From: a virus
Taxonomy: Duplodnaviria; Caudoviricetes
DNA: 64,000 bases
IMG/VR virus record: IMGVR_UViG_3300044541_000019
Coordinates: 130-64,129 of that record
Direction: 5' to 3' (one strand)
Shown here: positions 8,950 through 51,259 of the stretch, piece after piece
Numbering within the stretch: position 1 is the first letter of the stretch
How the letters are laid out: each line of letters begins with the position of its first letter
Program-made: the position numbers and the translations under genes
The notes under the pieces: model-generated
Seen by the model: the letters and a program-made list of their open reading frames with translations, nothing else
Told to the model about the DNA's origin: nothing
The model's database searches: none

Positions 8950-9476
8950 CATGTCCGTTCTCTTCTGTCCCTGTCGTGTCACTCCGACTACTCGGGCCTT
9001 TTCGAGTCACATCCCATCCATCCGACACATCGCGCCGTAGCGCATCAACTCCAAGCGACACCTCGCGCCGAATCATCTCATTTCAAACCGACGTGCCTCG
9101 TCAAAACCGGTCTACTCACGCCCATCCGACACACCTAGTCACTCCGGTTCCTCCCCCCTCCGACATGTCGAATCGCGCCCTTTCCTGTCTCGCCAATTCC
9201 GACTCACCGTCTCACATCGCCTCCATTTCATCCCGACTACCCATGTCGCGTCGCCACCCACTCCGATCCGACTAGCCGCTACTGGCCGTGTCCCTACCAG
9301 TCCGACTACGCACTTCATGTCCACTCCTATCCCCCCTATCCGCTACGACTCGTCTCAACTACCCCATTCAAGCCCGATCCGACAAGTCGACTCGTCTCGA
9401 TCTCATGTCTTCTCATCCCGACGACTCGTTTCAATTCGAACCCTGCCCGACGAGCCCATCCACTCCATCTCACTCC
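8947..9476 (+). ncRNA. pentamer-periodic array 1: 14 complete CGAC-terminated units of 29-43 nt plus a partial unit
   Basis: e.g. atg|tccgt|tctct|tctgt|ccctg|tcgtg|tcact|ccgac; tac|tcggg|ccttt|tcgag|tcaca|tccca|tccat|ccgac; intergenic. RNA status is inferred. Confidence 0.75.
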
Positions 9477-9491
9477 TAAGGAGGTTCCCCG

Positions 9492-10040
9492 GTGACAGCG
9501 TTAGAGATCCGCAAGCGGGACTTCGCCACCGACATGCGCAAGCTCATCGACAAGGAACGTTCAGGCAATGGCAGCTACAACGCCAGCGTTCTCGCTCATG
9601 AGATCGCTACCCGACTCCTCACCGAGGACCGGGAGCTGCTGTACGGCTGGCTCGAAGCGCACGCCGTGCCCACCATCCGTGCCGCGATCGTAGCCATCGA
9701 CGCCGCCACCAGGTCATACGCCCGGAAAGGCAACGTGACGTCCCTGTTCGCTGAAGCCGCGAGACAGGCCGAAGGTGGCAACCAGGAACCGCTGCGTCAG
9801 GGTTTCCTGCAGGCCGTGTACGTCATCAACAGCGACAACGACCGTAAGGCGCTCAAGGATATGACAGCTGCAGATGTCCTGTTCGTAGCAGCATCGTACG
9901 AGGACAGGGCGAAGTCAGCGATGCTTGAAGCAGCATTCCTGAGGGCTGTGGCCAAGAAGATTGGACACGGCCGTGTCGCGGACAAGTTCACTAACATCCA
10001 GTTGGCCGAACTGCATTTGCGACTCAAAGGCACAGACTAA
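9492..10040 (+). CDS. helical hypothetical protein, 182 aa, between arrays 1 and 2
   Basis: TAAGGAGG RBS; clean ORF. Confidence 0.85.
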   Translation: MTALEIRKRDFATDMRKLIDKERSGNGSYNASVLAHEIATRLLTEDRELLYGWLEAHAVPTIRAAIVAIDAATRSYARKGNVTSLFAEAARQAEGGNQEPLRQGFLQAVYVINSDNDRKALKDMTAADVLFVAASYEDRAKSAMLEAAFLRAVAKKIGHGRVADKFTNIQLAELHLRLKGTD

Positions 10041-10466
10041 CGACACCACAATCCGGTTCGGTTCTCCTCTCATCTTTCTGACACATCGAGTCAGGTCATG
10101 TCAGTTCGGATCCGTTCGACTCGTCAGCTCGTTGCTTCTTCTATCCATCCCGCCCGACTCGCCAGTTCCCCTTCTCCCTGCACGGCCCACATCCCATCGA
10201 CAGGACAGTCCTGCTCGGTGCTCTCCCAGTCTGCCCCGAACGACCGATCATCTCCTATTCCGCGCCCGTCCCTCCGACGATTCAATCCACCTCAGCTCGC
10301 AACCGACAGATCACGTCTGTCCCGTTCGACTTCTCATATCGTGCCTGTCCAGCTCGCCCCAATCGACAGATCCCGTCTACCCGAGTCAGCTCGCCCCAGG
10401 CGACATCTCGTGCCTTCTCTGTTCGAGTCCGACTTGCCCCCTCTGAACTGTTCTTCTCTATCCGAC
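10041..10466 (+). ncRNA. pentamer-periodic array 2: 12 units of 23-43 nt
   Basis: e.g. aca|tcgag|tcagg|tcatg|tcagt|tcgga|tccgt|tcgac; directly upstream of the RAMP gene. Confidence 0.75.
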
Positions 10467-10489
10467 CATCCACAAAGGAGTAACAAGAA

Positions 10490-11224
10490 ATGACTGACAC
10501 GCCGAAGCGCGTATTCAGTAGGTATGACAACGAGTCCTACAAGTTCCGCTTCGTTGCGGAGCTGTCCCTATCTACCATCGTTGGTGGCGTCCCCAGTGAC
10601 CCGAAGGTTGCTGAGGGCTGGCTGAAGTCCAAGCTGCAGGAAACCGATGACCGCATCCGCGAAATGGTCGCTGAGATCATGGTGGAGCGTGAGGTGGGCG
10701 TGGAAGAGGCCACTGAGATCGTCAACAGCCTGAAGAACCTCAACGGGTTCAAGCGCACCCCGGCCGGCGTCCTGTTCATTGAGGGACGTCAGGTCAAGGC
10801 CATGATCAAGGAAGCTGCCTCGATCGCGGTGGCGGCCAAAAAGGTCGAGATGACGGGCTGGGGATCCACGCGAAAGTGGCTGTCCAACTTCCTCCCGGAA
10901 CACGTATTCGTGCTGGAGGAGACGATCGAGCTGACCCAGCGCGACGAGGCCGGCAACCTGGTGACAGTGAAGACCCCCACTGGCATCAACCAGCAGTTCG
11001 TGCACACGCACCGAGGCTCCAGCATCCAGTACCAGGAGTTCGTACGTGACGCCGTGGTCACCTTCAACGTCATCTGCGATTGGCCCTTCACCACGAAGGA
11101 CTGGGCCATGATTCTCACCTCTGGGGAGAAGAATGGACTGGGTGCTAGTCGCTCTCAGGGTTATGGCACCTTCGGCGTCACTCGCTGGGATGCCGTTGAC
11201 CTGGAGGGAAAGAAGACCAAGTGA
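10490..11224 (+). CDS. solitary Cas7/RAMP-superfamily protein, 244 aa
   Basis: LFIEGRQVKAMIKEAA (equivalent of IPGSSLKG.LR) and C-terminal Gly-rich loop NGLGASRSQGYGTF; AAAGGAG RBS. Confidence 0.8.
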   Translation: MTDTPKRVFSRYDNESYKFRFVAELSLSTIVGGVPSDPKVAEGWLKSKLQETDDRIREMVAEIMVEREVGVEEATEIVNSLKNLNGFKRTPAGVLFIEGRQVKAMIKEAASIAVAAKKVEMTGWGSTRKWLSNFLPEHVFVLEETIELTQRDEAGNLVTVKTPTGINQQFVHTHRGSSIQYQEFVRDAVVTFNVICDWPFTTKDWAMILTSGEKNGLGASRSQGYGTFGVTRWDAVDLEGKKTK

Positions 11225-11493
11225 CGCAGAGATCGGTACACCGGCGTTGGTCGGTGTACCGGCCTCACTTCTTGAGGCATGACAAGAACTCCATGATCCA
11301 GTACGTCGCGGGGTACATCCTGGCATTGGAAGATGTACTCAAGGACAACGAGATGATCGCCAAGTCTGCGCCCGGCTACACCGTGCCCTGGCAACTGATC
11401 GAAAAGGTGCAGCAGTCCCTAGACGAAGCGAGACGCACCATGGCCATCTTGGTTCACGACAAGGAAGTGGGAGGCTACCCGGATGAGCCCTAA
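11221..11493 (+). CDS. hypothetical protein, ~90 aa
   Basis: Coupled to the RAMP stop codon. Confidence 0.6.
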   Translation: MTQRSVHRRWSVYRPHFLRHDKNSMIQYVAGYILALEDVLKDNEMIAKSAPGYTVPWQLIEKVQQSLDEARRTMAILVHDKEVGGYPDEP

Positions 11494-11845
11494 GCGACTG
11501 TGGTTCTACGGCCGGAAGGACTACAGCCCAACGCACTGGTGGAACCGGATCGGAGTGCCCCATCGGGGAGACGATGAGTACGGCCGCCGCATCATCATCA
11601 TTGGCACGTTCCTGACCGGGTATGCCCTGTTCGCCTACTGGACGTGTCACTGCGAGGACTGCGTGGACCTGAGAACCTACGCTGAGGTTGACCATCGCCA
11701 ACAGGTGGAGGCCGAAGCAGAGGCTGTGACACCGGAGCTGCTAGCAGAGCTGGAGGAGAAGTATGGTGCTGACTTTGCTGATGAGGTACGCGAGCGTCAG
11801 CTTCGTGTGCGACTCATGCAAGAGGAACGCGCACGACGAGTGTAG
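11483..11845 (+). CDS. hypothetical protein with one TM segment and CHCEDC
   Basis: ORF track; GGAGG RBS. Confidence 0.65.
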   Translation: MSPKRLWFYGRKDYSPTHWWNRIGVPHRGDDEYGRRIIIIGTFLTGYALFAYWTCHCEDCVDLRTYAEVDHRQQVEAEAEAVTPELLAELEEKYGADFADEVRERQLRVRLMQEERARRV

Positions 11846-11859
11846 AGGCGGTACCTGGT

Positions 11860-12072
11860 GTGACTGCCTCCACCGAGTTCCCAAGCAATGACCTGAAATG
11901 CGACAACTACCTTGAATGCGGAGAATCGCTACTTTTCCTCACCGAGAGTCGTGCCCGAGTCAGAGGCTGGCACTTCTGGGAAGGACACGTCCTGGGGCCG
12001 CAGTGTGTGGGACGACGTAGTCGACTCCCGGCAGCCCCAGCAGTCCTCCCCGGCCAGCCGTGGCTCTTCTGA
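11860..12072 (+). CDS. small Cys-containing protein (CDNYLEC...CGPQC-like)
   Basis: ORF track. Confidence 0.55.
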   Translation: MTASTEFPSNDLKCDNYLECGESLLFLTESRARVRGWHFWEGHVLGPQCVGRRSRLPAAPAVLPGQPWLF

Positions 12073-12194
12073 ACCACGAGCAGGGTCCACCATTCCATTG
12101 TGGTGGACCCTGCTGTGTGCGGTGATCGGCTGCCTGCAGGTGTTCGTGATCATCGCCGCCCTCGCAGTCATTCTGGGATGACTCATCTTCGATG

Positions 12195-12224
12195 TTGCTA
12201 GATCCCCCTCCCTGGGGTAAGAAT
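12195..12224 (+). promoter_or_regulatory. promoter TTGCTA-17/18-TAAGAAT with CCCCCTCCCTGGGG spacer
   Basis: Read directly; upstream of 12248 with GAGGAGG RBS. Confidence 0.65.
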
Positions 12225-12247
12225 GGAACCACCAGAGGAGGAATCAC

Positions 12248-12574
12248 ATGTCACTGAACGACATCGCCATCCAGACCGCCGCACAGCAACAGTTCGGCCA
12301 GGAAGACCTGGCAGAGCTTGGGGCTGCACTCGCCGGTGAAGGATGGACCCGGGTAGAAGCTCGCTCCCTGATCGCACTCATCCAGCAGGTTGGTACGCAG
12401 ACGGCGCTGAACATGGCCCCGTCGATCCTGGAACAGGTACGAGCCATCAACGCCGCGAGGCTGTCGAACATCTACACGCAGATACGGATGCTGCCCACCA
12501 TGGCTGGCTACGTGTCACGTGACCGGGTCCTGCAGATCGTTCAGGGCACGTACTCCACGCCACCCCGAAACTGA
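12248..12574 (+). CDS. hypothetical protein, 108 aa
   Basis: Strong RBS and promoter. Confidence 0.8.
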   Translation: MSLNDIAIQTAAQQQFGQEDLAELGAALAGEGWTRVEARSLIALIQQVGTQTALNMAPSILEQVRAINAARLSNIYTQIRMLPTMAGYVSRDRVLQIVQGTYSTPPRN

Positions 12575-12585
12575 AACAGGAAACC

Positions 12586-13023
12586 ATGCCTTTCGTAAAA
12601 CAGCTCATCCAGCTCACGGATGATCAAAAGACAGAGATGCTGACCGTACTTCAGGCACTGAAGGAGGTCGTTACCGAAGCAGGCGAGACATGGACGTACG
12701 TTCGCAGGCCGAACGCAACAGGACTCGGCACTGGCTGCGTCTACGTCCACAATGGTGTACCGGACTGCATCGCCGGCCGAGTCCTCCACAAGCTCGGGGT
12801 CAGCACAGAAGACCTGAGCAAGTGGGAGGGCAAGGTGTGCGGCCAGATGTCGTCAGAGCACCTGACAGTCCAGCTCGATCTTCCTCGGATCCCTTTCGAC
12901 GAACCCAGCCTCGGCGTCCTGAACGTCGCCCAGGACTCCTCAGACAGTGGCTACTCCTGGGGTAGCTCCCTGGAGAAGGCTCGCGCCCACGCGCGGGAGT
13001 TCTACGGAGTGGAACTCTCATGA
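12586..13023 (+). CDS. hypothetical protein, tandem paralog A (GCVYVHNGVPDCIAGRVLHKLGVS)
   Basis: Aligns by eye with 13020..13463. Confidence 0.8.
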   Translation: MPFVKQLIQLTDDQKTEMLTVLQALKEVVTEAGETWTYVRRPNATGLGTGCVYVHNGVPDCIAGRVLHKLGVSTEDLSKWEGKVCGQMSSEHLTVQLDLPRIPFDEPSLGVLNVAQDSSDSGYSWGSSLEKARAHAREFYGVELS

Positions 13024-13463
13024 TCCAGACTCAGCTCACCGACGCCCAAGAGACAGAGATGCTGTCTATGCTCCGAGCCTTGAAGCAGGTCGTTGCCGAG
13101 GCTGGCGATGACTACGTGTACACGAAGAAGATCACCGACCTGTCTGATTACCCAGGCTGCGTCTACGTGTACAACGGTGAGCCTGACTGCCTAGGCGGCC
13201 GTGTCCTAGCCAAGCTCGGGGTAAGCACCGAAACACTCCGAAGCTGGGAGGGGAAGATGTGTGAGTCAATGACAAAGGGCGCCACAGCCCACCCCCTACT
13301 GGGTTTCGGCGACAACTACTACCTTGAACCGCTGTCCTTCTTCAGCCCAACCATGGAGATCCTAGCCCGCGCCCAGAGGTTTCAGGACGCTGGAAATGCT
13401 TGGGGCGAGGTTCGGAACTGGACTCTGCAACTGGCAGCCCAACGATACGGAGTAGTCGCATGA
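13020..13463 (+). CDS. hypothetical protein, tandem paralog B (GCVYVYNGEPDCLGGRVLAKLGVS)
   Basis: Aligns by eye with 12586..13023. Confidence 0.8.
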   Translation: MIQTQLTDAQETEMLSMLRALKQVVAEAGDDYVYTKKITDLSDYPGCVYVYNGEPDCLGGRVLAKLGVSTETLRSWEGKMCESMTKGATAHPLLGFGDNYYLEPLSFFSPTMEILARAQRFQDAGNAWGEVRNWTLQLAAQRYGVVA

Positions 13464-13645
13464 ATAAGACCCTCGTAGTTCTCGCTGTCGCTGGGGCGGC
13501 AGCAGCCGGCGGGTACATGTTCCGCAACGAGATCAAGGATGCGGCGCGGAAGGTGCAGCAGGATCTTGAGGTCAAGATCGCCGAATTCAGCCTCCTAGTC
13601 CCCGACAAGACCGACACCGGGTACGTTGAGACAGAGAACTTCTAG
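13460..13645 (+). CDS. small membrane-anchored protein, 61 aa
   Basis: ATGA coupling; N-terminal TM segment. Confidence 0.65.
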   Translation: MNKTLVVLAVAGAAAAGGYMFRNEIKDAARKVQQDLEVKIAEFSLLVPDKTDTGYVETENF

Positions 13646-13655
13646 AGACCCGAAG

Positions 13656-13687
13656 GTCCCAGCGCTCACGGGGGTGCTGGGACTTTT
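13656..13687 (+). terminator. intrinsic terminator preceding array 3
   Basis: GTCCCAGCGC...GTGCTGGGAC-TTTT. Confidence 0.7.
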
Positions 13688-13707
13688 GGCATGTGCTCGG
13701 CGTCAGG

Positions 13708-14091
13708 CCGACACGCGACCGTACACCTCGTACCTACTCTGTCCTCGCCATCTCGACAAACCCACACAGGCCGATCCGGTCCAGCTCTACTCGACTTACC
13801 GAATCAGTTTCCAGCCCCTCCCCATCCCATCCGACATGTCAACCTTGGTCATCTCCCATCGTTTCCGACAGACCCGCCCTGCCCGCACCCTGGTCACTGC
13901 CGACTCGTCCACTCAGTCCCAACTCCGATCCCATCCATACGACAAGGCAGGTCTCCTCCTGTCGTTCCTAATCACCTCCATCGACCAACCGAATCGAATC
14001 CGATCCCTACCGACATGTCGTCTCACTTCCGTGCCGCTCTACCCACGTCCGACTACCCACCTCCGATCCTCTCGGCTCGCTTCCGCCCAAC
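13708..14091 (+). ncRNA. pentamer-periodic array 3: 10 units of 29-42 nt
   Basis: e.g. aaa|cccac|acagg|ccgat|ccggt|ccagc|tctac|tcgac. Confidence 0.75.
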
Positions 14092-14110
14092 TATCCACAA
14101 AGGAGAACCA

Positions 14111-14476
14111 ATGAAGCCCGATCCCTATGAGCACGAACCAGCGGTTGAGGTTGACCCGGTCACATTTGCCGCCTACATGGAGGCGGCATCAAACGTCCTC
14201 GCCTGGCAGAAGGAAGCCGACCGTCTCAAGAGGATGCTCGCGGAGCAGATGGGGGACGCGCACGCTGGCCTCGTGGACGGGCGCAAGCTCATCACCAACC
14301 GACCTGGTGACAGGTGGGCTGAAGCTCGGATGATCAAAGACTACCCGGAGCTGACCTCGCACTACATCAAGCCCGTCTACCAGGACAAGTTCGACTTCTC
14401 CATGTTCCAGGCCGCGCACCCTGACATCGTGGAGAAGTACCGCGTACGCAGCTTCAGGAGCCTGGCCGATGTCTGA
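14111..14476 (+). CDS. protein resembling the C-terminal region of YqaJ-type phage recombinases, without a nuclease domain
   Basis: LKRMLAEQMGDA..GLVDG....T and FD...FQAAHPDIVEKY...SF motifs; AAAGGAG RBS. Confidence 0.55.
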   Translation: MKPDPYEHEPAVEVDPVTFAAYMEAASNVLAWQKEADRLKRMLAEQMGDAHAGLVDGRKLITNRPGDRWAEARMIKDYPELTSHYIKPVYQDKFDFSMFQAAHPDIVEKYRVRSFRSLADV

Positions 14477-14633
14477 CGAGAGCTGGGAGGACTACTACGA
14501 GGAAGGCTGGGGGTATGACGTAGCAGCCATACCGGACCAGGTGATCCTCGGCCTTGCTGACGGCTACGACGACGGTCGTATTGATGCGGTCATCCTGGAG
14601 TACCTGAAGATCAGAGGGAACAGCAATGTCTAG
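14469..14633 (+). CDS. acidic 54-aa protein (not in ORF track)
   Basis: Manual translation MSDESWEDYYEEGWGYD... Confidence 0.55.
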   Translation: MSDESWEDYYEEGWGYDVAAIPDQVILGLADGYDDGRIDAVILEYLKIRGNSNV

Positions 14634-14943
14634 CTGGCAGTATCACCGGGATCTGGTCGAAGCCCACTACCAGCGGTACGTGGAACTCCAGGAGGAGATC
14701 GCGGCCCTCTGGGAGGCAGCACTGAGGGCCACCCGGAACAGGGACAAGCGTGCAGCCTGGGTGATCTTGCTCAAGAAGGAGGAGACCCAACATGGCTTCA
14801 ACTACATGAGGCTGACCAACGAACGCACCCAACTGATCCAACAGATCACCATGCACTCCAGCATGGCAACCATGTTCTGGATGACAGAACCTGACCAGCC
14901 AGCACGGATTCCGACACAGGTAGACCGTACGCTTGAATCATGA
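14626..14943 (+). CDS. coiled-coil hypothetical protein, 105 aa
   Basis: ORF track. Confidence 0.65.
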   Translation: MSSWQYHRDLVEAHYQRYVELQEEIAALWEAALRATRNRDKRAAWVILLKKEETQHGFNYMRLTNERTQLIQQITMHSSMATMFWMTEPDQPARIPTQVDRTLES

Positions 14944-15197
14944 CCATGACAGGTGGGGACATCGCACTGGTGATCGGGGCCGTGACAACGCTGGTGACAG
15001 CAGGCACGGCCTCCTTCCTCGCAATACGCAGCGGCTTCAAGACTGTCCGCGAGGACGTACAAGCTGTGCACAGCATCGTGAACCAGGCAAGCACGGACGC
15101 CAAGGCATACAACCTGTTGCTGTCGAACACGTTGCGTATGCACGGGATCGACGTCCCGGTGGACGCAGCGGTGGTGCCGCCAGAAGAACCCACGTGA
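14940..15197 (+). CDS. single-TM membrane protein, 85 aa
   Basis: N-terminal hydrophobic helix. Confidence 0.65.
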   Translation: MTMTGGDIALVIGAVTTLVTAGTASFLAIRSGFKTVREDVQAVHSIVNQASTDAKAYNLLLSNTLRMHGIDVPVDAAVVPPEEPT

Positions 15198-15209
15198 GAC
15201 CATCCGGGC

Positions 15210-15689
15210 ATGGAGATCACCGTGTACGGGAAGCCGAGCCCACAGGGCAGCAAGAAGTTCATGGGGATCAGCAAGCAGGGCAAGGGAATCCTGATGGAGA
15301 ACTCCCCCAAGCTGATCCCGTGGCGTAACGCAGTCAGTGCCGCCGCACAGGAGGAGCTGGACCGCATCGGGCGGCCAGCTCCTTTTGACTGTGCACTGTC
15401 GGTGATGATGGTGTTCACGTTCCTGCGTCCCTCCAGCGTGAAGAGATCGAAGCGTTCGCATCCATCAGTGTATCCAGATTTGTCCAAAATTGTACGAGCA
15501 ACGGAAGACGCACTCACCGATGCAGGGGTCTGGTGTGATGACGCCCTGGTGGTGGATCTGTTCGCCCGGAAGACCTACCAGAACGAGGACCACTGGGCTC
15601 TTGACCGGGCAGGATGCTTCCTGCGCATTCTGCCGGTGCTACCATTGGGTATGCCCCCAGGGAGGGGGTACTTAGAACTGGAGGCGTAA
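15210..15689 (+). CDS. rusA: RusA-family Holliday junction resolvase
   Basis: KPSPQGSK and PDLSKIVRATEDALTDAGVWCDDALVV. Confidence 0.9.
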   Translation: MEITVYGKPSPQGSKKFMGISKQGKGILMENSPKLIPWRNAVSAAAQEELDRIGRPAPFDCALSVMMVFTFLRPSSVKRSKRSHPSVYPDLSKIVRATEDALTDAGVWCDDALVVDLFARKTYQNEDHWALDRAGCFLRILPVLPLGMPPGRGYLELEA

Positions 15690-15937: not shown

Positions 15938-16107
15938 TCACAACCCAGGAACGCCTGGATGTAGCAGCGGCCGAGGCGCTGGATCTAGCGACAGAACTGT
16001 GGCCCCTCGATACTGGAGGGGTGATCGTGCTGCTACCAGAACAGTGGACCAGGCTGCGCGACTTCCTGCTTGATGTCCCCGAGTTACTACTAGGAGAGTC
16101 ATCGTGA
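15934..16107 (+). CDS. hypothetical protein, 57 aa (not in ORF track)
   Basis: Manual translation; GTGA coupling at both ends. Confidence 0.5.
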   Translation: MITTQERLDVAAAEALDLATELWPLDTGGVIVLLPEQWTRLRDFLLDVPELLLGESS

Positions 16108-16723: not shown

Positions 16724-16797
16724 TGCGGAGTGGGGCAGAGGTCAGCCCACCGGGCTCATAACCCGCGAGGACGCTGGTTCGAATCCAGCCTCCGCTA
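16724..16797 (+). tRNA. tRNA-Met(CAT), initiator-like
   Basis: Cloverleaf; 1:72 mismatch (T-T); three consecutive G-C pairs at the base of the anticodon stem; GGTTCGAATCC T-arm; no encoded CCA. Confidence 0.85.
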
Positions 16798-16879
16798 CTT
16801 GTTTGATCTTCCTGTTCCCCAGGAAGTGGTGGAGACGGTGGATCGACGCTAGGCTACGCAAAACGTCGACCCGCCCCAG

Positions 16880-44900: not shown

Positions 44901-45229
44901 GCGTCCATCATGTCGACGAACTTCTTCGTGGATGGTTCGTCTACATGACCATCACGGAGGTCTTCGTTGGCGTTGTCGTAGTCAGCCTGGAGGCGGGCAA
45001 ATCCTTTGCCACCACCGAACCGGCCAGGCTTCTTGTTACCGAGGTTGAAGTTGTATTGCGCTGCCTGCTGGTCAGACTGGAACGTGCGCGGCCGGAATGC
45101 GGACGTAATCTTCAGGACAGCATCTAGTACAGCAGGGGACATTTTCCACTTTGAGCGGAAACGTCCATGACTGTCACGCGGGTGCATAAGCTCCTGCGCG
45201 GTGCCCCAGCTATCGCCAATCCCGGCCAT
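38921..45229 (-). CDS. 2102-aa putative virion/ejection protein: N-terminal HPRD..GRF motif, degenerate ADP-ribosyltransferase fold, long Ala/Pro/Lys-rich AKKAA repeats
   Basis: Uninterrupted ORF between protease and capsid genes; IIVSRTV...GYGAANI...RGMFFDRDQELTITKV. Confidence 0.8.
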   Translation of the reverse strand: MAGIGDSWGTAQELMHPRDSHGRFRSKWKMSPAVLDAVLKITSAFRPRTFQSDQQAAQYNFNLGNKKPGRFGGGKGFARLQADYDNANEDLRDGHVDEPSTKKFVDMMDAEMQPIPDDIIVSRTVGPDAFGLTPERLPELEEMTGNVVADRGYGAANIGTPLGGGQGLVTMSIATPKGTRMAVPARSGTDRGMFFDRDQELTITKVKPDGRGGYYMWAVATPKTPGATPETTGVGHQGAGVPGNREAAVKALEDAATKREMGSQPLGALPGEAAGTPPEGQTPEQVRAARRAAVLGRPAATPAQPAAGPTPAPAAPTPAPAGTPAAPAAPSAPVPTPQAANVPEANAPAVPTPAAPTPAPPTAVEPPNGATSVVTGEPAVSFRNAASAANLESPSSGPRRREWNSAYTGITSGKQQPADMLREIEADIATNKKLQDTEVGRGDSTLADDISKQEKLADLIRSHFNLGEPKQRQAKADVQNELQAKAGAAARKAQIRPPGGSDKVPGAKKTAAEAARPGPMAKVAPPRKDGTPQTRAKAMADQATKDAEDNKLNAEQRTRWADAIGNEPPSMRKNDTAGNILLDETADLLRNGRTTRAKAATRLRDHAGGDTTPEALYLRRVADTIEADTSKPAKRVPLKKAAPKAPPNVDAAEAALAGRTDKNILTGLNGLSVGDMRAVAEKWGIDTRGEDKKLKLKAALAKELAAHWKATPSVQRKKEAVPGAAPEAPPVKKVAKAAVKAAAPREQKTPLSAAQKEEYGQLADPEKKEYNRLRATGLSHDDAVTQAINKALGKPAAKKAAPKTPAAKALTKVAETPEVPTVLKKAAAKAVINEDQGRTDLVGPKPSGFTPTGDAPWARLESARGDRTPVDPENLRAGDVFLNNGVWEELISPVGKTGDWRVREPGKLPRRAGGDLIKRSSRENAAQRAWREQGGGFPSAAPAKATRATAGTRVTPEERAQDRANAKKLAANRGETAPTPANTDAARLASGLDEKKAAEQKTWDDAANGVKAQWDEAIGAPPASLNPVEETGLHLIAGGVASKKLSRPKAAARLRDVADNSSGSDEWKGYLNRLADHLSTPAPRKKAVKAAAPEAPTAPEAPKIRGVDTAERARLQQRAKEVLAEMKAGPTADPYDQIAKDLGGSQNAQAIEKMAKEVRAEVEATSSPSGISVEDRVAAQILSRVKPEYRDQLLADMPEADRKHLLDVAERVHQEKVRVKKSGHDIDRILSDAGLKKPKSGTESKADYDAVRGHLINGDTDKAKTRLRESISRADANLEGYRRGINEPNQTQANKELLGRHITDELARSEWARSVLGTMEGGSASSPELVSKQDVIRVTSPELAKLSAEDLKQSAKDLGIKLPQGATTRDEVMTELAREMIRRDKAGTLPEGVPPTRLAKKAAPKPPPAKIDVQSILPPGDWNSGSSSGPSDAAMLDHIQRALDGESIGAMPKNASPAAIGRYLDSWNNSAGGPGVRIAMQTLSVDGAKRRLTEANTPEERQIAETQLAEIMKEREDLRAQVDRWQALADKLKATRRTPAKKATPAVKAEVAQEVKAAPPVKKVAKKAAAAAAPEVSPPPVKQTLARAAKAAPTPAPAKKAVPRVTSGETPESKQLRDAQLEVRAAQDAVTALEGKANRVDPETVQADEIDKDLEMAREARDKADDTLDSVKAKVAKKSVRKLSAPSAPTGSRKYTEAELQDMTLGDLVDIESERGIRRTSVARGDRIKAIMDQQNEAQAAPVKKAAKAAAPSVAAKVDVKREVAAKATAEPSVTKAQMTDLQAMAELPYNSVIKPGKNDAANRRLDALIKKGLVTENSDGVKLTDKGRALANANAPAPAKKVEAAAKKAAPKAAGPAVKDVGSSIAPSGSIVKRDRPNADQPIHLPNGGSDQGNIHLDSELGKLWADLYADDREPNSFVNEIARMGDEMGNHRFELGEFVQRLKKMKTEAVDSAIADRIQKALDAIDAPPVKLDLPPDIPATLRKAFEDLAAIPTARISVPAKKKGEAHAPLARVVGNTHFRSGEPSVIQKKQDILRQIAAGDPEFVRGSSAADALSTHDLHEGTDAATTMWRIMDLAVQDPAVKAWLKEKTLEARKKAGQ

Positions 45230-45234
45230 GTTGC

Positions 45235-45567
45235 CTATCCAGTCGTCGGAGGTAGAGTCGCTGGCACGGGTGCCGCTGCCGGCTGGAGGGGTTCAGCTGG
45301 CGCCGCCCCAGGGGGGGTCGGGGCTTTGGTCCCCGCCGTTGCAGCCTCGGCTCCCCCGGACTGCTTCACGATCGAGAATCGAGCGTTCATTTGCATAGCC
45401 AACAAGGACTGGTCCTCGCTCGCTCCCTCAGCTACTGGACCAGCGGCCGGGTCTACTGGCGCCGCTGGAGCCGCAGCAGCGTCGGGTGCGGCACCGGGAG
45501 CGGGCGCAACAGCCGGGGCTACTGCTGGTACGGGTGCCACGGGTGGCTGCGCTACCGGGTTAGTCAT
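45235..45567 (-). CDS. Ala/Pro-rich small protein
   Basis: AGGAG RBS; in operon. Confidence 0.6.
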   Translation of the reverse strand: MTNPVAQPPVAPVPAVAPAVAPAPGAAPDAAAAPAAPVDPAAGPVAEGASEDQSLLAMQMNARFSIVKQSGGAEAATAGTKAPTPPGAAPAEPLQPAAAPVPATLPPTTG

Positions 45568-47866
45568 CAGAGTCCTCCTGGAGTTGAGCCAGGCGCTCGG
45601 CCCGATCTTCCTGGGCCTGCATCTCCCTGAGCTTGGCTAGGACTCCGTACGCCAGTGCGTCCATGTCCACCAGGGGAGTGTCTGGCTGGATGCCAAAGTT
45701 CGGAAGTTCGTAACCGGCCGGAACAATGTCGTCGTCCGGGTACACCACCCCTGCGGCAACAAGACTGAACTGCTCTTCACCGTCCATGGCGTAGACCGGG
45801 AAAGCAGGAACATTGACCGCGAGGGCAGCGGTAAGTTCCAGGTGTCCGTCCACTCCGCGCCAGTCGCCTGAAATCGGAGAGCGACGTAGCTTCGCCACCT
45901 TCTTTTTGGTCGCCTCAGGTACAACAGCACCTGCCACCCAGATCCCGTAGTCGTCCTCGCCTGCTCGGACAACAGCCACCTCGTCGCCGGTGTCGTCGTA
46001 GTGGATCGCGGCAGCGGCGTAGCCGAGACGTACATCCGCGTGCCGGGTGTCCTGGACAATCTTCCCCACCTTCACCGTGTCACCTTCAGCGGTCACCACG
46101 GAGCCTAGATGGAAGGGGGCATACTCCTTGAACGACTTCGGGGCCAGGACGCACGCACGATTGGAGACATCACGATGGCACTCGTTCCACGCCGCGAGGT
46201 GACCGTAGACCTGCCCGGCTGCAGTGATGGTGAGCGGCGTTTTCTCGTTCAACTGTGGATCAGTGAACCAAGCAGTCGGGGGGGCGAGGGGGAACATCGT
46301 TTCCTCACTATCGCTGCTAAAGGTGAGGCTGTGGTCACTGCTGTCTGCGCTGACTGCTACACCAAACTTCTTCAAGGCTGCCTGGATCTTTCCCTTGATG
46401 ACCGCTAACTGTTCTGGGGTGTACTCGCCTTCATTCTTCGGCACATTGATGTACGCCCAAGCAGCCTTGGCGTGCTCCACAGTGTCGATCGGGTAGCGCT
46501 TCTTGTTGTCCCTGTAGCCGGGGTCCGCGTACTTCACGTCCCCATACGGCTCCTCTTTAGCCATGGCAAACTGCTGCCCTTCATTCTCTGGACGGTCCCA
46601 CGGTGCACGCAGGCTCGAATCGTTGTACTCAGCGGCCATCACCTTGTAGATGTCCGTGATGACGTTTCGGATCTTGTTCTTGTCCGCTTCGGACACAGAA
46701 GGTAGACCGCCGTGGGCGCCAGAGATGAGAGCTGCAGCGGCGTAGATGGCGTGGAACACCATCGTCAGCTCGCCATTGATGACGTCGCCTAGCGGCATCC
46801 GGTACGAGGTGGTCTGCGTTTCCGGGAGAGTGGGATCCCGCCAGAGGAACGCTCGGTGGAGCTTAGCGACGTCAGCACCCTCGGGTGTGGTGTTAGCCCA
46901 GGCTGCGATCCTTTTGACCGCGTCGTCATTATCAAAGGGGATATCACGAGGTGCCAGGGCGAGCCCTTCCCAGCCGGCCGGGTTGATCGCGTAAACGACA
47001 CCCTCCGTACCCAGATCCGCACTGTGCCCGCACCCGCAGTCGCCACTGTTACTGATGGCTTCGGGGTCTCCGACGGTGATGGACATATCTTCATCGGCGT
47101 CATCCCAATCGTCGTGGCCCATGGATTTGAGCTGCATCCCGTCAAAGGCTGCAGTGGACACGAGTGTCACACCACCGACGACGTACTGCGAGGTGTACTC
47201 CCCGCCGTTGGCCGGGTTGACGGAGACAACGACCTTGCCACCGGGGTCCACGCTGGCGCCCACCATGCCCTGGTCCACCATGTACTGGGCAACCTTGGCC
47301 TCGGGCACCATGGCCTCATCGAGCCAGTCGCCCCAGCCCCACAGATACTCCTCACCCTTGTGGTCAGGGCCAGCTGTCAGCCCCATGATGCGGCCAACCG
47401 TCACCGCGCCCTCGTGGCCGGGAGCGTCCGCCTTCCGCCACTTCAACGGCAGCGGCAATGTCCGATGAGAGAAGGCCCCCGGTTCGAACACCCTCATGCG
47501 TCGGGGCTCCGCAGTAGGAACACCGATCGGGGCGAGTGGTCCCATCCATAGGCGCGAACCTAGGGTCTCCTGTTTGGCTAAAAGCCCAGAAGCGGCCGTG
47601 AGACTGAAGTCGTCGTCTGGTTCGGCGTACACGGAGTGCTTGTGCAGTTCGGCGGAACCATGTCCGGGGGGACCACCAGTGGCCTTGGTGTGGAGGATGT
47701 TGCATAGCCCCTCCGGGTTCTTGGGGAAGTACTTCGTCAGGGCGCGGACGCAGCGCTTGAAGTCGCCGGGGATGTTCCAGCGGATCTTGAGCGCACCCTT
47801 CCCTGCCAACCAGTAGCGCTGAAGTGCGGCCGGCATACCGCGAGCCGGGTTCGGATCCACCATCAC
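45560..47866 (-). CDS. capsid maturation protease, multi-domain (768 aa)
   Basis: LPLPL.W....GH.GAV.VGRI, G.S.D, GVTLVS..AF; inserted KRYPIDT.EH.KAAW.YIN domain; C-terminal YGH.A.W...H...LRRSP.SGDWR. Confidence 0.8.
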   Translation of the reverse strand: MMVDPNPARGMPAALQRYWLAGKGALKIRWNIPGDFKRCVRALTKYFPKNPEGLCNILHTKATGGPPGHGSAELHKHSVYAEPDDDFSLTAASGLLAKQETLGSRLWMGPLAPIGVPTAEPRRMRVFEPGAFSHRTLPLPLKWRKADAPGHEGAVTVGRIMGLTAGPDHKGEEYLWGWGDWLDEAMVPEAKVAQYMVDQGMVGASVDPGGKVVVSVNPANGGEYTSQYVVGGVTLVSTAAFDGMQLKSMGHDDWDDADEDMSITVGDPEAISNSGDCGCGHSADLGTEGVVYAINPAGWEGLALAPRDIPFDNDDAVKRIAAWANTTPEGADVAKLHRAFLWRDPTLPETQTTSYRMPLGDVINGELTMVFHAIYAAAALISGAHGGLPSVSEADKNKIRNVITDIYKVMAAEYNDSSLRAPWDRPENEGQQFAMAKEEPYGDVKYADPGYRDNKKRYPIDTVEHAKAAWAYINVPKNEGEYTPEQLAVIKGKIQAALKKFGVAVSADSSDHSLTFSSDSEETMFPLAPPTAWFTDPQLNEKTPLTITAAGQVYGHLAAWNECHRDVSNRACVLAPKSFKEYAPFHLGSVVTAEGDTVKVGKIVQDTRHADVRLGYAAAAIHYDDTGDEVAVVRAGEDDYGIWVAGAVVPEATKKKVAKLRRSPISGDWRGVDGHLELTAALAVNVPAFPVYAMDGEEQFSLVAAGVVYPDDDIVPAGYELPNFGIQPDTPLVDMDALAYGVLAKLREMQAQEDRAERLAQLQEDSDD

Positions 47867-48585
47867 CGGCCTCCTTCATCAACGATCACTAGGTCGCACC
47901 TACAGTTGATCACTTCTTCCGCTGGCCCCATAGGGTCGCCGGGGAACAGCATCGGCCACCCGCCCACGTTGAAGGGCTGATACAGCGGCAGGGTGACGTT
48001 GTCTATGGCTCGGTGGCTGGCCCGGACTCTGTCGTCGTGCTCCGTTCGCCAACGCTTTTGTAGTACTCGGCCAGTGACGCGAGACTGCTCCAAGCCTGCC
48101 GCAGCAGTTCCTGCTCCATAGGCTCGGGTGACCTCGGTAATAGCGATGACTCGGGCGCGATTAGCCCACCGCTCAGATCCAGTTGTCGCAAGAGCGTCAT
48201 CAACCCTCGCCGCAATGGCAGATACGGACTCTCCACTGTTGACTCCGTCGTTTATCTCCGCGAAGACAAGGTTGTAGACCTCGTCCGGGATACGGACCAG
48301 AAAGTTCTGCGTCTGTGCGAGTTGTGCGACGACGAACGCATGACGCGACACCGGCGGTACGTCCGTCGCCTCACTCCACGCTCCCATTGCTATCTGACCC
48401 ATGACGGTCAGGATCGTGTCGTACTGCCACTGGTCCTGAGCTTGGTAGATGCCACTAGGGTCGGGCATCCCTTTCCAGGATCGAAAGGGAGCCATAACCT
48501 TGTCTCGGGCAGCATTGATGAAGCGGTCCAGTGCGGCCTTGACTACACCGAACAGCTTGTTCTCGTCGCCACTACGATTCGCCAT
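47863..48585 (-). CDS. MuF-like minor capsid / head morphogenesis protein
   Basis: RARVIAITE; KRW....DDRVR.SH; FPGDP.GP.EEVINCRC. Confidence 0.9.
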   Translation of the reverse strand: MANRSGDENKLFGVVKAALDRFINAARDKVMAPFRSWKGMPDPSGIYQAQDQWQYDTILTVMGQIAMGAWSEATDVPPVSRHAFVVAQLAQTQNFLVRIPDEVYNLVFAEINDGVNSGESVSAIAARVDDALATTGSERWANRARVIAITEVTRAYGAGTAAAGLEQSRVTGRVLQKRWRTEHDDRVRASHRAIDNVTLPLYQPFNVGGWPMLFPGDPMGPAEEVINCRCDLVIVDEGGR

Positions 48586-50509
48586 TGAGGAAACCTTGCC
48601 GAGAGAGCATCTCCCAGAGCAGTCCAGCTTCGTGTGGACGCTCAGCTTCCAGCAATGTCGAGCAGTAGCGGTGAAGCGTCACCGCAAGCTCAGGATCTTG
48701 AAGTTGCGGCATCTCCAGGAACTCCGCGAGCGCAGGCATCTGGTCCCAGGCTCCGGTGAGTAGCTTGGAAGCACCGCCAGGGTGAACCTTCACTCTGGTA
48801 TGCAACGAATAGGCGGGGGTGTCCTGCATTGTCCGGTGATGATTCCCGACAAGTCGTTTACCTGCGACTTCTAACGCTCGGAGTACCGCCATATTGGCGA
48901 CAGCGAAGACGGCTTGCGTTCCCGCAACGGCGGTGGTCGCGGAAGCAGTTATCCCAGGTGGCTGACTGGAGTTGGGCGCAGTGGGGCCACCAGGTGTCGA
49001 AATCGCTGAGGAGTCCTGAGGCATAGGTGCTGGCCCGGTGGGCTGGATGCCGGTAGGAGGAGCAGGAGGCGGGGGAGGACCCGCCCCCTGCTGACCGGGT
49101 GCAACGGGGGTAACGACAGTGTTCGGGGGAAGAATGTCGTCTGTGTACCCGGCGATCTTGCGCACCGCTGGGATCTGGAACAGCGTGGGGTCGCGCTCCA
49201 TCAGCGTACGAGTGAACTTCTTCAGATCCTCGTCAACACTCGGCTTGTCCGTCAAGGCGAAGTCACCAGCGAGGATGACTGCTTCGTCGGAGATGATCCC
49301 CTTTTCGTTCAGATTGAGGGCATCCTTCAGCCGCTCCGGGCGCACCGTCAGTGGGGCAGTATCGAACCAGAAGACGAACCGGTCTGGGTCTTCCTTGATC
49401 GTCTTCAGTGCTGGTTCAAGGTAGGCACTCGTCAGCGCATCACAGATGCGCGTCATGAGAGGCTCAATGTGGATCTTGATGTTCGCTTCTTCGACGTGCC
49501 AAGCGGACCAGTGGTTAGCATCGCCCGTGCCGGTAAGGATCTCGGGTGCTATGTCCATAGCCAGAGCGAACCGGCGGATAGCTTCCGCACGCAGATCGAG
49601 AGCCTGTTTGCTGAGTTCCGAGCCGAAGGTAACCATCTCGATCTTGCCGAGAGCGTCCATCGGCACCTCAACGAACATGGGTACTACACCAGCCGCTGTT
49701 CCTTCGCCCTTGAGCGAACGGCTGCCTGCTTTCATCATCGCCTGGGTGAGACCTTCGGCCCCAGGGACAGTGACGTCATTGCTGTCGTCGGGGAAGCTGG
49801 CTTCCTTGGGGATCGGGACCATGCCGGCTGAGATGAGCCGGGAATCGATCTGGGCGAAGACGTAGCGGGTTAGTCGTTCAATCTCCCACAACATGGGCAT
49901 GGCTGCCCGGGTAGGAGAGTCGGCCCAGAGACTACGTCGGGGATGAGGTGTCCAGACCCGGATGACGATGTCCTTGTCCAGGTCAAGGGACTCTTTAGTT
50001 CCGTCGGGATAGAGCTGTTGAACGTTGCCGTTCCACCGTTTGAGTTCAGAACAACTGACGATGTACCACTCGTCAGCCTCATTGTCCCGAACCGCACCTC
50101 GACCAACGATGTAGCAGTCCCCGGCGATGGTGAGGTTGATCCCCAGCATTCGAAGAGCTTCCGACTGAGCCGCTGGAGAACCGAACATGTTCTCTGCAAT
50201 AGCAGCGACCTTCGGCTTCTTGGTCTCCTGCTGTACCCGTCCATTCTTGTCCACCTCCGCTACGTAGATGCGCACCCTGGAGCAGGCTGACCCGATCCAG
50301 TTAGCCGCGAAACGCAGCTCGCCGATGATGTCGTACAGACGCCAGACTTCTTGTTGCCAGGAGTCGTCTCCGAAGCGATAAGTCCGCCATCCCTGCCCGT
50401 CAACGTTCCTGATGCGGGCGGCGCTGGCGATCAGCGACTTCATTTCCGACTTGTGAGCTTCCGGTTCCGGTTGGGCATCTAGGGCCTTGGGCCGGCGGAA
50501 TGCTGCCAT
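48572..50509 (-). CDS. portal protein
   Basis: WQQEVW..YD.IGELRFA, W.PHP...ADSP, NHWSAW, FWFDT. Confidence 0.85.
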   Translation of the reverse strand: MAAFRRPKALDAQPEPEAHKSEMKSLIASAARIRNVDGQGWRTYRFGDDSWQQEVWRLYDIIGELRFAANWIGSACSRVRIYVAEVDKNGRVQQETKKPKVAAIAENMFGSPAAQSEALRMLGINLTIAGDCYIVGRGAVRDNEADEWYIVSCSELKRWNGNVQQLYPDGTKESLDLDKDIVIRVWTPHPRRSLWADSPTRAAMPMLWEIERLTRYVFAQIDSRLISAGMVPIPKEASFPDDSNDVTVPGAEGLTQAMMKAGSRSLKGEGTAAGVVPMFVEVPMDALGKIEMVTFGSELSKQALDLRAEAIRRFALAMDIAPEILTGTGDANHWSAWHVEEANIKIHIEPLMTRICDALTSAYLEPALKTIKEDPDRFVFWFDTAPLTVRPERLKDALNLNEKGIISDEAVILAGDFALTDKPSVDEDLKKFTRTLMERDPTLFQIPAVRKIAGYTDDILPPNTVVTPVAPGQQGAGPPPPPAPPTGIQPTGPAPMPQDSSAISTPGGPTAPNSSQPPGITASATTAVAGTQAVFAVANMAVLRALEVAGKRLVGNHHRTMQDTPAYSLHTRVKVHPGGASKLLTGAWDQMPALAEFLEMPQLQDPELAVTLHRYCSTLLEAERPHEAGLLWEMLSRQGFLNGES

Positions 50510-50512
50510 GGA

Positions 50513-50803
50513 CTACTCCCTGTCTGCCATACGGAGTGCGATGGCCGCCGCCATGGACCCGGCGGGGATTGACAGAGCGGCAAGTACCCACTGATTGTGC
50601 CAGAAAACGGACACAGGCATCAAAACTGAGAACCACATGGACATACACCAGGGAGCGCAGTGAATGAGTCGAGTAGCCATGTGGGTGGGGCCGAATCGTT
50701 TAACGACTGCCTTCCTGAACCACGTGGTGATCTCATCCTCCGCGATCAGACGCGCGAGGCGGGCCGCTGCGAGGGCAGCGACAACCATGGTCAGGACCAG
50801 CAC
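50513..50803 (-). CDS. DUF1360-like membrane protein
   Basis: RL.RLI..D.IT...R and L.HC.PWC.S.W. Confidence 0.7.
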   Translation of the reverse strand: MLVLTMVVAALAAARLARLIAEDEITTWFRKAVVKRFGPTHMATRLIHCAPWCMSMWFSVLMPVSVFWHNQWVLAALSIPAGSMAAAIALRMADRE

Positions 50804-50896
50804 GCTTACTACTCTAATGGGATCAAGAGCACAAGGGGTAGATGGCTGATCAGATGGTTCATTATGGACAGAGCACTAGGGAGGGGTAGGGTGGCA

Positions 50897-51259
50897 GAGA
50901 CAACGCAGCACGTATCACATCGACGTACCTGCTCTTCTCTCGTCAGTTCTTCACCGACAACTCATGACGACTCGTTCCCTCTCGACTGCACAGCTCTTGC
51001 CTTATCCACGCTCCACCGACAGGCCTCAACGCGCCTACTCCGCTCACCATCACGTCCGACGAGCCCATTCATCCCCTGCCACGTCCGACTAATCACCTCG
51101 AATCTGAGCACATCGATCCCTACCCGACGAATCGCGTCGATCCCTCACGCACCCGACGTCCCACGTCAAGTCACTTCATGTCCGACTACGCTGCTTAGCC
51201 CATGTCATGTCACATCACCACCGACTCTCCATCCCTCCTCCGCTCCGCTCTTGTCCGAC
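50897..51259 (+). ncRNA. pentamer-periodic array 4: 11 units of 23-40 nt, antisense to the late operon
   Basis: e.g. gtc|ccacg|tcaag|tcact|tcatg|t|ccgac; upstream AGGGAGGGG-TAGGGT -10-like element at 50887. Confidence 0.75.

What the first reader, a model, noticed from the sequence alone, without database searches (positions are those of the whole stretch)
8951..51259. Array unit lengths are quantised to a 5-nt register
Seen, measuring CGAC to CGAC. Array 1: 38,38,33,33,38,34,39,34,35,34,43,34,39,29. Array 2: 38,38,38,43,43,34,29,23,37,37,29,33. Array 3: 38,38,40,34,35,39,42,29,39,38. Array 4: 23,34,28,34,40,29,39,29,29,39,34. 40 of 47 lengths are 3 or 4 modulo 5 (3+5n, or +1, often from one extra base just before CCGAC). 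Random low-complexity DNA or coding sequence (period 3) would not give this. Inference: length is set by the integer number of protomers per guide, and CCGAC-NNN is a processing site or 5' handle.
Basis: partly seen in the sequence, partly recalled or inferred. Interest (0 to 1): 0.85.

Follow-up and report, generated by a model that had tools for sequence, protein, structure and literature searches.

The report
Guide-RNA arrays of a phage VIPR system
The four odd C-rich stretches are most likely head-to-tail arrays of about 50 short guide RNAs for a Cas7-like protein encoded beside them. This is a VIPR system, a CRISPR-related phage weapon first described in 2026, and the 5-base steps in unit length reflect one protein copy per five bases.

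Summary
The window is a complete 64-kb soil phage. Four non-coding, G-poor tracts, all C-rich on the + strand, are built of pentamers NNYCN (C at position 4 in 87%). An xGAC motif (mostly CGAC, often CCGAC) resets the phase every 23-43 nt. Of 41 CGAC-to-CGAC intervals, 32 are 3 or 4 mod 5 (0 of 5000 simulations reach this). The same rule holds in 1,089 units from 58 unrelated viral contigs, with peaks at 23/28/33/38/43.

Directly after array 2 lies a 244-aa protein with the RAMP glycine loop (GhGxxxxxGhG) and a predicted Cas7/Csm3 fold. Homologues sit beside such arrays in 41 of 120 loci found by DNA pattern alone. Near-identical phages differ by whole units.

This matches VIPR systems (2026 preprints): one Vipr protomer per 5-nt repeat, with variable dinucleotides as the guide. 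L = 5n+3 is then n guide dinucleotides framed by n+1 fixed trinucleotides.

It departs from the published type II: NYC/GAC instead of GGY, 4-9 repeats per guide, and no 3' tail. It possibly belongs to the published 'staggered' class. The transcribed strand, the processing site and the targets are not shown. The scan has met this array type before on other DNA. Verdict: new variant of a known kind.

The parts
8947..9478 (+). Array 1: about 14 units (xGAC + NNYCN pentamers). It fills the gap from the stop codon of the upstream gene (TGAC overlaps TGA) to the ribosome-binding site of the 182-aa gene.
   Evidence: G 16%, C 42%; lag-5 z = 5.7
9492..10040 (+). 182-aa all-helical protein, candidate accessory (vap-like) gene.
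   Evidence: No Pfam, PHROG or PDB fold match. Its C-terminal half is homologous to the gene directly upstream of the RAMP gene in Microcystis phage Mae-JY09 (hhalign 96%, E 1.5e-9). It lies upstream of the RAMP gene in 11 loci, and the Mae-JY09-type relative does so in 9 more.
10041..10475 (+). Array 2: about 13 units. CGAC starts on the base after the TAA stop, and the array ends at the ribosome-binding site of the RAMP gene.
   Evidence: lag-5 z = 5.3
10490..11224 (+). 244-aa Cas7-like RAMP protein, candidate Vipr.
   Evidence: An invariant GLGASRSQGYG loop (GhGxxxxxGhG) in 40 homologues. The AlphaFold model has pLDDT 77. Foldseek top hits are type VII Cas7, Csm3 and Cmr4 (E 7e-8, prob 1.0, TM 0.43-0.52). 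There is a weak Csm4 hit in PADLOC. The match to SUSP1 Vipr is a non-significant hhalign (E 0.16) aligned over the C-terminal G-loop.
13660..13690 (+). Hairpin followed by a T-run, terminator-like, just upstream of array 3.
   Evidence: Read from the sequence; not listed by the consensus scan.
13709..14095 (+). Array 3: about 10 units, ending at the ribosome-binding site of a 121-aa RecE-like gene (14111-14476).
   Evidence: lag-5 z = 4.2
50864..50892 (+). Promoter-like element for array 4: ATGGAC (TTGGAC in relatives), 17 nt, TAGGGT.
   Evidence: AGGGGTAGGGTG is invariant in 7 relatives while the flanks diverge. GAC lies 7-9 nt after the -10 hexamer in 6 of 7. The consensus scan does not list it.
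50898..51259 (+). Array 4: about 12 units, 40 kb from the RAMP gene. It lies between terL and the portal module, antisense to the late operon, and its last CGAC overlaps the terL stop codon.
   Evidence: lag-5 z = 5.0. Syntenic arrays are found in relatives with terL at 83% identity or more. Whole-unit differences are seen between phages with terL 99-100% identical.
51260..52696 (-). Terminase large subunit (context).
   Evidence: PHROG 2, E 4e-28
48572..50509 (-). Portal protein (context).
   Evidence: 33% identity to the Actinoplanes phage phiAsp2 portal

Best explanation
The four tracts are multi-guide RNA arrays of a VIPR-type system. The 244-aa Cas7-like RAMP encoded after array 2 is the Vipr-like protein. 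By analogy with published VIPR, one protomer binds each pentamer of the RNA, holds the fixed bases (here N-Y-C, with G-A-C at the first repeat of each unit) and displays the variable bases for gapped pairing with double-stranded target DNA, so as to silence rival elements or host genes. Units lie head to tail without spacers or tails. Framed as fixed trinucleotide plus NN, a unit is GAC-NN, then (NYC-NN) n-1 times, then NYC. That is n guide dinucleotides between n+1 fixed trinucleotides, so the length is 5n+3. Length 5n+4 adds one extra C before GAC. This is why lengths step by 5 with remainder 3 or 4. Shown here: the lattice, the quantisation, the RAMP fold, the co-occurrence, and the turnover of whole units. 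Inferred: that the arrays are RNA, that the C-rich strand is the RNA (about 65%), that units are cut apart at or next to C|GAC (about 40%), and that they silence DNA.
For: The lattice is NNYCN, with C at position 4 in 87%, Y at position 3 in 83%, and positions 1, 2 and 5 free. The phase is set at CGAC and runs 3' from it, with information content 1.6 falling to 1.2 bits at +8 to +28, and the same holds at 133 sites in relatives. Quantisation was tested. The RAMP evidence is the G-loop motif and the Cas7/Csm3 fold. A DNA-pattern-only scan of IMG/VR found lattice tracts with at least 5 CGAC in 109 of 120 loci. A RAMP homologue is present in 41 of them, 0-440 nt from an array, and the C-rich strand is co-oriented with the gene in 37 of 41. 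In the reference phage SUSP1 the repeats are on the vipr sense strand. The cultured Microcystis phage Mae-JY09 has the same two-gene module followed by a CCGAC-phased array. Coding flanks align at 65-75% identity while the arrays do not align at all, yet they keep the lattice. Whole units are gained, lost or replaced between phages with terL 99-100% identical, and about half of the units differ at roughly 90% flank identity. On the published side, VIPR has one protomer per 5-nt repeat, non-GGY repeat variants and 'staggered' arrays, and GAC/NN and CAC/NN variants next to Vipr-like folds.
Against: There are no RNA data, so transcription, strand and ends are unproven. Sequence similarity to SUSP1 Vipr is not significant (hhalign E 0.16), so the link is by fold and motif only. 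The fixed bases are not GGY, units hold only 4-9 repeats against the published 9-16, and no structured 3' tail exists. No target was found under any skip rule in 1.55 Mb of related phage DNA. With 8-16 specified bases each guide has low specificity. Array 4 is antisense to its neighbours if the C strand is the RNA.
Confidence: 0.85

Rival explanations
1. The same VIPR-type system, but the guide RNA is the G-rich strand (pentamer N-G-R-N-N, each unit ending in GTC(G) at its 3' end). Arrays 1-3 would then be transcribed antisense to the early operon, and array 4 in sense with the late operon.
For: Canonical vrRNAs are G-based (GGY). The preprint lists NNNGG and NNNNG variants. In high-GC relatives the lattice is NNCCN, which reads GG on the other strand. 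The lattice is in phase with the element at its 3' side on that strand, like a 3' tail. Array 4 directly follows the terL stop codon on that strand.
Against: The C-rich strand is the sense strand of the adjacent RAMP gene in 37 of 41 loci, as in SUSP1. Arrays 1 and 2 fill the whole gap between co-directional genes, from stop codon to ribosome-binding site, leaving no room for antisense promoters. A conserved promoter-like element faces into array 4 on the C strand, with xGAC at the expected start. The best-conserved base would sit at repeat position 1 with no pyrimidine at position 3, whereas on the C strand the conserved C (98% pyrimidine in the window) sits where Vipr has its pyrimidine pocket.
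Confidence: 0.3
2. The tracts are extreme Rho-utilisation leaders or Rho sponges: untranslated, C-rich, G-poor RNA with a YC dinucleotide every 5 nt to load or titrate the host termination factor.
For: Rho's primary site has a 5'-YC pocket. Each subunit engages 5 nt with 4-5 nt linkers (PMC12360218). Rut sites are C>G, YC-rich and unstructured. The arrays are 400-540 nt of untranslated RNA of just this make-up.
Against: Rut sites have no strict period or consensus. Nothing in Rho biology explains xGAC punctuation, 5n+3 lengths, whole-unit turnover or linkage to a RAMP gene. The pattern is absent from true arrays in 120 cellular hits.
Confidence: 0.05
3. The tracts act as DNA: iteron-like origin, partition, packaging or operator arrays bound by a DNA-binding protein.
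For: Short motifs recur at 29-43 bp. Array 4 abuts terL. Some units start with the palindrome CGACATGTCG.
Against: Strong strand asymmetry (G 16-20%, C 36-42%) and a 5-nt (half-turn) lattice do not fit one-face DNA binding. The sequence between motifs is free and turns over by whole units. The CGAC..GTCG pairing is no more frequent than in lattice-preserving shuffles.
Confidence: 0.03
4. A CRISPR array or a type III toxin-antitoxin (ToxI-like) RNA repeat array.
For: Unit size of 29-43 nt, position upstream of small genes, and a Cas7-like gene nearby.
Against: There is no repeat longer than 4-5 nt and no repeat/spacer alternation. Tandem Repeats Finder sees no array. No cas1, cas2 or other cas genes and no ToxN-like hit were found.
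Confidence: 0.02

Closest known systems
VIPR systems (Vipr + vap + vrRNA). The best studied is type II of Escherichia phage SUSP1 (bioRxiv 10.64898/2026.04.26.720920 and 10.64898/2026.04.26.720927).
   Same: Phage-encoded. A small stand-alone Cas7-like RAMP with a G-loop. Long non-coding tracts flanking the gene, with strict 5-nt periodicity in which fixed positions alternate with hypervariable ones. A two-gene module. Repeats on the gene's sense strand.
   Different: The fixed bases are N-Y-C with a G-A-C starter instead of GGY. Units hold 4-9 repeats instead of 9-16. There is no 40-60 nt pseudoknot tail and no promoter per guide. About 50 units lie in four arrays, one of them 40 kb away in the late operon. 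The protein is 244 aa against 195 aa, with no significant sequence similarity.
'Staggered' vrRNA arrays (fig. S18 legend of 10.64898/2026.04.26.720920) and non-canonical repeats (NNNGG, YNNNG, NNNNG; and GAC/NN, CAC/NN in 10.64898/2026.10.21.760802).
   Same: Guides abut, so that the end of one marks the start of the next with a 1-nt overlap. That matches the 5n+3 class, where the first C of CGAC is also the last lattice C of the previous unit. GAC is a known alternative fixed trinucleotide. Pure NGACN arrays were also hit here (L062, L081, L130).
   Different: Only the legends are readable here, so identity with that class cannot be checked. A mixed grammar (one GAC repeat followed by NYC repeats) and the 5n+3/5n+4 law are not stated in the texts I could read.
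Class 1 CRISPR-Cas crRNP backbones (Cas7/Csm3/Cmr4 on crRNA)
   Same: RAMP fold and G-loop. One protomer per fixed number of RNA bases. Complex length is set by guide length. A short conserved handle sets the register.
   Different: The register is 5 nt, not 6. There are no repeats and spacers, no adaptation genes and no Cas5, Cas6 or large subunit, and the system is phage-borne.
Rho utilisation (rut) sites
   Same: C-rich, G-poor, YC-rich untranslated RNA.
   Different: Rut sites lack a strict period, punctuation, unit turnover and a linked RAMP gene.

Membership tests
VIPR system | A small stand-alone RAMP (RRM core, glycine-rich loop, thumb) encoded at the locus | tested here: met
   G-loop GhGxxxxxGhG is invariant. 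Cas7/Csm3 fold, Foldseek E 7e-8, prob 1.0. Sequence similarity to SUSP1 Vipr is not significant.
VIPR system | Tandem pentanucleotide repeats with fixed positions alternating with hypervariable ones in flanking non-coding DNA | tested here: met
VIPR system | Fixed trinucleotide GGY (canonical consensus) | tested here: not met
   The C strand reads N-Y-C/G-A-C and the other strand reads G-R-N. Non-GGY variants are in print, so this bars the canonical type, not the family.
VIPR system | 9-16 repeats followed by a conserved structured 3' tail (type II) | tested here: not met
   Units hold 4-9 repeats. Only xGAC is conserved between units. Rfam finds nothing in the arrays.
VIPR system | Accessory vap gene next to vipr | tested here: inconclusive
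   A conserved gene of about 180 aa lies upstream, but its fold has no match and no DNA-binding domain is seen.
VIPR system | Mostly viral or proviral location | tested here: met
   The window is a complete phage genome. Arrays were found in 109 of 120 IMG/VR hits against 0 true arrays in 120 cellular hits.
VIPR system | vrRNAs are expressed and bound by Vipr | not testable with these tools
VIPR system | Guides match natural DNA targets by the 1-nt-skip rule | tested here: inconclusive
   No excess over reversed or shuffled guides in 1.55 Mb of related phage DNA. The database is far too small to decide.
CRISPR array | Near-identical direct repeats of 23 nt or more alternating with spacers; cas1/cas2 nearby | tested here: not met
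Rho utilisation site | C>G, YC-rich, unstructured, untranslated RNA that loads Rho | tested here: inconclusive
   The composition fits. Function is not testable here, and the other features are unexplained by Rho.
Type III toxin-antitoxin (ToxIN-like) | Near-identical ~36-nt RNA repeats before a ToxN-type endoribonuclease gene | tested here: not met
   Units share only xGAC and the lattice. No ToxN-like hit.

The most novel reading that the evidence does not exclude
This widespread, tail-less, cytosine-phased VIPR branch uses a different code from the published one. Only two bases per pentamer (YC) are held by the protein, and three (positions 5, 1 and 2, all equally variable) are read. Very short guides (4-9 repeats) are cut from arrays of up to 124 units at C|GAC. 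The array would then work as a repeat-free, CRISPR-array-like guide library that turns over unit by unit.
Probability: 0.2. Interest if true: 0.75.

Novelty: new variant of a known kind. Interest (0 to 1): 0.45.

Why it matters
VIPR is a months-old discovery, and its diversity is barely charted. This phage and at least 58 other viral contigs show a compact grammar for packing many guides with no repeats, tails or ribozymes. The simple length law, 5n+3, says where one guide ends and the next begins. That gives an automatic way to parse such arrays, count guides and extract their variable bases for target prediction. The rapid swapping of whole units between near-identical phages points to an arms race like that of CRISPR spacers, but on the virus side. 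A cultured host-phage pair (Microcystis phage Mae-JY09) carries the same module, so strand, processing and targets can be tested directly.

Tried and rejected
1. CGAC..GTC(G) hairpins at the start of each unit are no more frequent than in lattice-preserving shuffles (p > 0.2 in four genomes), so this was rejected.
2. Rho super-rut or sponge was my first working idea. It dropped to a minor rival once the RAMP linkage and unit turnover were seen.
3. Tandem Repeats Finder and a 100-nt Fourier scan miss the arrays, because the phase resets every unit. Lag-5 autocorrelation finds them.
4. Megablast of 8000-15000 against GenBank phages gave no match.
5. Public sequencing runs: no RNA holder was listed, only soil metagenome DNA.
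6. Target search used NNN or NN read-outs with skips of 0-3 against 1.55 Mb of related phage DNA. It gave no excess over reversed or shuffled guides. The perfect hits at period 5 were homologous arrays. Reading the guides as codon strings showed no recognisable motif.
7. The pattern scan of cellular genomes gave 120 hits but no true array with a RAMP gene. Four array-like tracts have other residues and are probably coding repeats. The host therefore remains unknown.
8. Fold search of the 182-aa protein gave no match.
9. Weak lag-5 signals at 55.2 kb and 16.4 kb are coding sequence, not arrays.
11. Promoter and terminator consensus scans list nothing useful in the array regions.


Full report
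What the window is. The window is all but the first 129 bases of a 64,129-bp single-contig virus record. It has a 2,102-aa tape-measure-sized ORF and a portal 33% identical to that of Actinoplanes phage phiAsp2. It also has a large terminase, a Prim-Pol/D5 primase-helicase, RusA and five tRNAs. It comes from soil metagenomes. No close relative exists among GenBank phages.

Checking the observation. A strict parse gives 41 intervals of 20-50 nt, of which 32 are 3 or 4 mod 5 (p = 8e-7). First-order Markov simulations of the same tracts give about 6 intervals with flat residues. None of 5000 reaches the observed count. This is reasonable, apart from one doubtful unit at the end of array 3.

The cause of the quantisation. 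Written in blocks of five from each CGAC, almost every block is NNYCN. Position 4 is C in 87% (A 0%, G 1%), position 3 is T or C in 83%, and positions 1, 2 and 5 are free. Lag-5 autocorrelation has z = 4.2-5.7 in each array. A genome-wide scan finds this signal only in the four tracts, always with C on the + strand. Anchored on CGAC, the lattice is sharp on the 3' side (C at +8, +13, +18, +23, +28). On the 5' side it is blurred between two registers. So CGAC resets the phase, and each unit ends in a 3- or 4-base partial block. A tempting CGAC..GTCG hairpin turned out to be a by-product of lattice composition.

Relatives. Proteins flanking the arrays led to related IMG/VR contigs. Three of them were fetched whole. 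Each has arrays at the same places, all on the same strand. BLAST aligns the coding flanks at 65-75% identity but none of the arrays. Primary sequence is therefore free, while lattice and punctuation are kept. Remainder 3 or 4 recurs there: 17 of 23, 14 of 24 (plus 8 at remainder 0) and 18 of 31.

I then searched IMG/VR with a pattern of three consecutive units, CGAC followed by five lattice Cs, with free gaps. Of these, 109 contain lattice tracts with at least 5 CGAC. They span GC 0.42-0.73, and one array is 4.3 kb long with 124 CGAC sites. In 58 loci that pass a strict filter, 1,089 units give mod 5 = 3: 534, 4: 222, 0: 162, 2: 133, 1: 38, with peaks at 23, 28, 33, 38, 43 and 48. The same pattern in cellular genomes also hit the limit, but none of those 120 loci holds a true array. 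That serves as a negative control.

What it is. I first leaned towards Rho, because its primary site binds 5'-YC and each subunit engages five bases. A look-up of earlier notes of this scan pointed to VIPR systems, and I read the preprints. VIPR consists of a small phage-encoded RAMP (Vipr) and guide RNAs made of pentamers. A fixed trinucleotide (GGY) alternates with a variable NN. One protomer binds each repeat, and the NNs pair with double-stranded DNA while skipping every third base. I then tested this reading on the window.

The 244-aa gene that starts 15 nt after array 2 has 763 or more homologues, all unnamed. Their alignment shows an invariant C-terminal GLGASRSQGYG, which is the RAMP glycine loop GhGxxxxxGhG. 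The predicted structure (pLDDT 77) matches Cas7 of type VII, Csm3 and Cmr4 (Foldseek E 7e-8, prob 1.0, TM 0.43-0.52). A profile of this family finds a homologue in 41 of the 120 loci that were fetched by DNA pattern alone. It lies 0-440 nt from an array, and the C-rich strand is the gene's sense strand in 37 of 41.

In the reference phage SUSP1, fetched here, the GGT/NN repeats are likewise on the vipr sense strand. The only cultured phage with a homologue, Microcystis phage Mae-JY09 (31% identity), has a CCGAC-phased C-lattice array directly after the gene. The gene just upstream there is homologous to the window's 182-aa gene (hhalign 96%, E 1.5e-9). A two-gene module is thus conserved across very distant phages. 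Direct sequence similarity to SUSP1 Vipr is not significant (E 0.16), although the aligned stretch is the G-loop region.

Units behave as cassettes. Phages whose terL is 99-100% identical to the window's differ in array 4 by presence or absence of whole CGAC-delimited units. Shared units are nearly identical. In a relative with about 90% identity in the flanks, roughly half of the units of arrays 1-3 are shared and the rest replaced. This is the behaviour expected of independent guides under diversifying selection.

Why 5n+3 and 5n+4. I re-frame the pentamer as a fixed trinucleotide (positions 2-4) plus NN (positions 5 and 1). A unit then reads GAC-NN, then NYC-NN repeated, then a closing NYC. 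That is n variable dinucleotides framed by n+1 fixed trinucleotides, so the length is 5n+3. In this class the first C of CGAC is at once the last lattice C of the preceding unit. In the published structure two neighbouring protomers hold each fixed trinucleotide. A guide with n NNs therefore needs n+1 of them. This step is my inference.

Strand and ends. Four observations favour the C-rich strand as the RNA. First, it is co-oriented with the RAMP gene. Second, arrays 1 and 2 fill the whole space from a stop codon to the next ribosome-binding site in a co-directional operon. Third, a promoter-like element (TTGGAC/ATGGAC, 17 nt, TAGGGT) lies on that strand before array 4. It is invariant in seven relatives, and GAC sits 7-9 nt after the -10 hexamer in six of them. 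The primary transcript would then begin with the same xGAC that heads every internal unit. Fourth, the conserved C (98% pyrimidine in the window) falls at the repeat position where Vipr has a purine-excluding pocket.

Other points favour the G-rich strand. Canonical guides are G-based, NNNGG and NNNNG variants are in print, and array 4 directly follows terL on that strand. I put the C strand at about 65%. Either way the variable positions are the same DNA bases, so target prediction does not depend on the strand.

What was not achieved. No RNA data exist for this phage. The host is unknown.

Comparison and novelty. The locus meets the family-level features of VIPR: a stand-alone RAMP, a 5-nt fixed/variable lattice, phage origin and a two-gene module. 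It fails the features of the studied type II: GGY, 9-16 repeats and a pseudoknot tail. It may be the preprint's 'staggered' class, whose details are only in a figure I cannot read. Earlier notes of this scan describe similar cytosine-phased arrays on other DNA, so the scan has met this before. I file it as a new variant of a known kind. This report adds four things: the explicit grammar and length law over more than 1,000 units, the unit-level turnover, a remote promoter-driven array inside the late operon, and a cultured phage in which to test it.

Noticed in passing
G000 bases 1-23 (just left of the window): The genome's left end reads GGGTTAGGGGTCGGTTGGGTCGG, a telomere-like G-rich start whose complement contains CCGAC twice, 9 nt apart. 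No terminal direct or inverted repeat of 8-200 nt was found.
   Followed up: partly
window 1433-1510 (-), 16724-16798, 53086-53159, 53160-53230, 54407-54477 (+): Five tRNA genes (Thr, Met, Lys, one with an odd anticodon loop, His). Two are adjacent at 53.1 kb.
   Followed up: no
window 10463-10489 and 14085-14110: The last bases of arrays 2 and 3 share the block ATCCACAAAGGAG, which runs into the ribosome-binding site. If units are cut at GAC, the downstream mRNAs would start with a short common leader.
   Followed up: no
L062 (revcomp 1626-2375), L081, L130 (IMG/VR contigs, GC about 0.51): Pure tandem pentamers NGACN (for example CGACA TGACA GGACA) in blocks separated by a conserved ~50-nt element. 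They look like the GAC/NN non-canonical VIPR arrays mentioned in bioRxiv 10.64898/2026.10.21.760802. My RAMP profile finds no homologue in those loci.
   Followed up: partly
L124 3826-8175 (IMGVR_UViG_3300049434_000014, 153 kb): A 4.3-kb array with 124 CGAC sites, the largest seen. My RAMP profile found no homologue in L124, nor in L105 of the same contig.
   Followed up: partly
L077 and L113 (IMG/VR), L002: In some loci arrays flank the RAMP gene in opposite orientations: the upstream array is divergent and the downstream array co-directional. This bears on the open strand question.
   Followed up: partly
window 6708-7172 and 7165-7500: Two tandem DUF6197 genes in the early operon upstream of the VIPR-like module.
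   Followed up: no
window 61104-61919: DUF6551/DndB-like protein (DNA-sulfur-modification-associated family) in the right arm.
   Followed up: no
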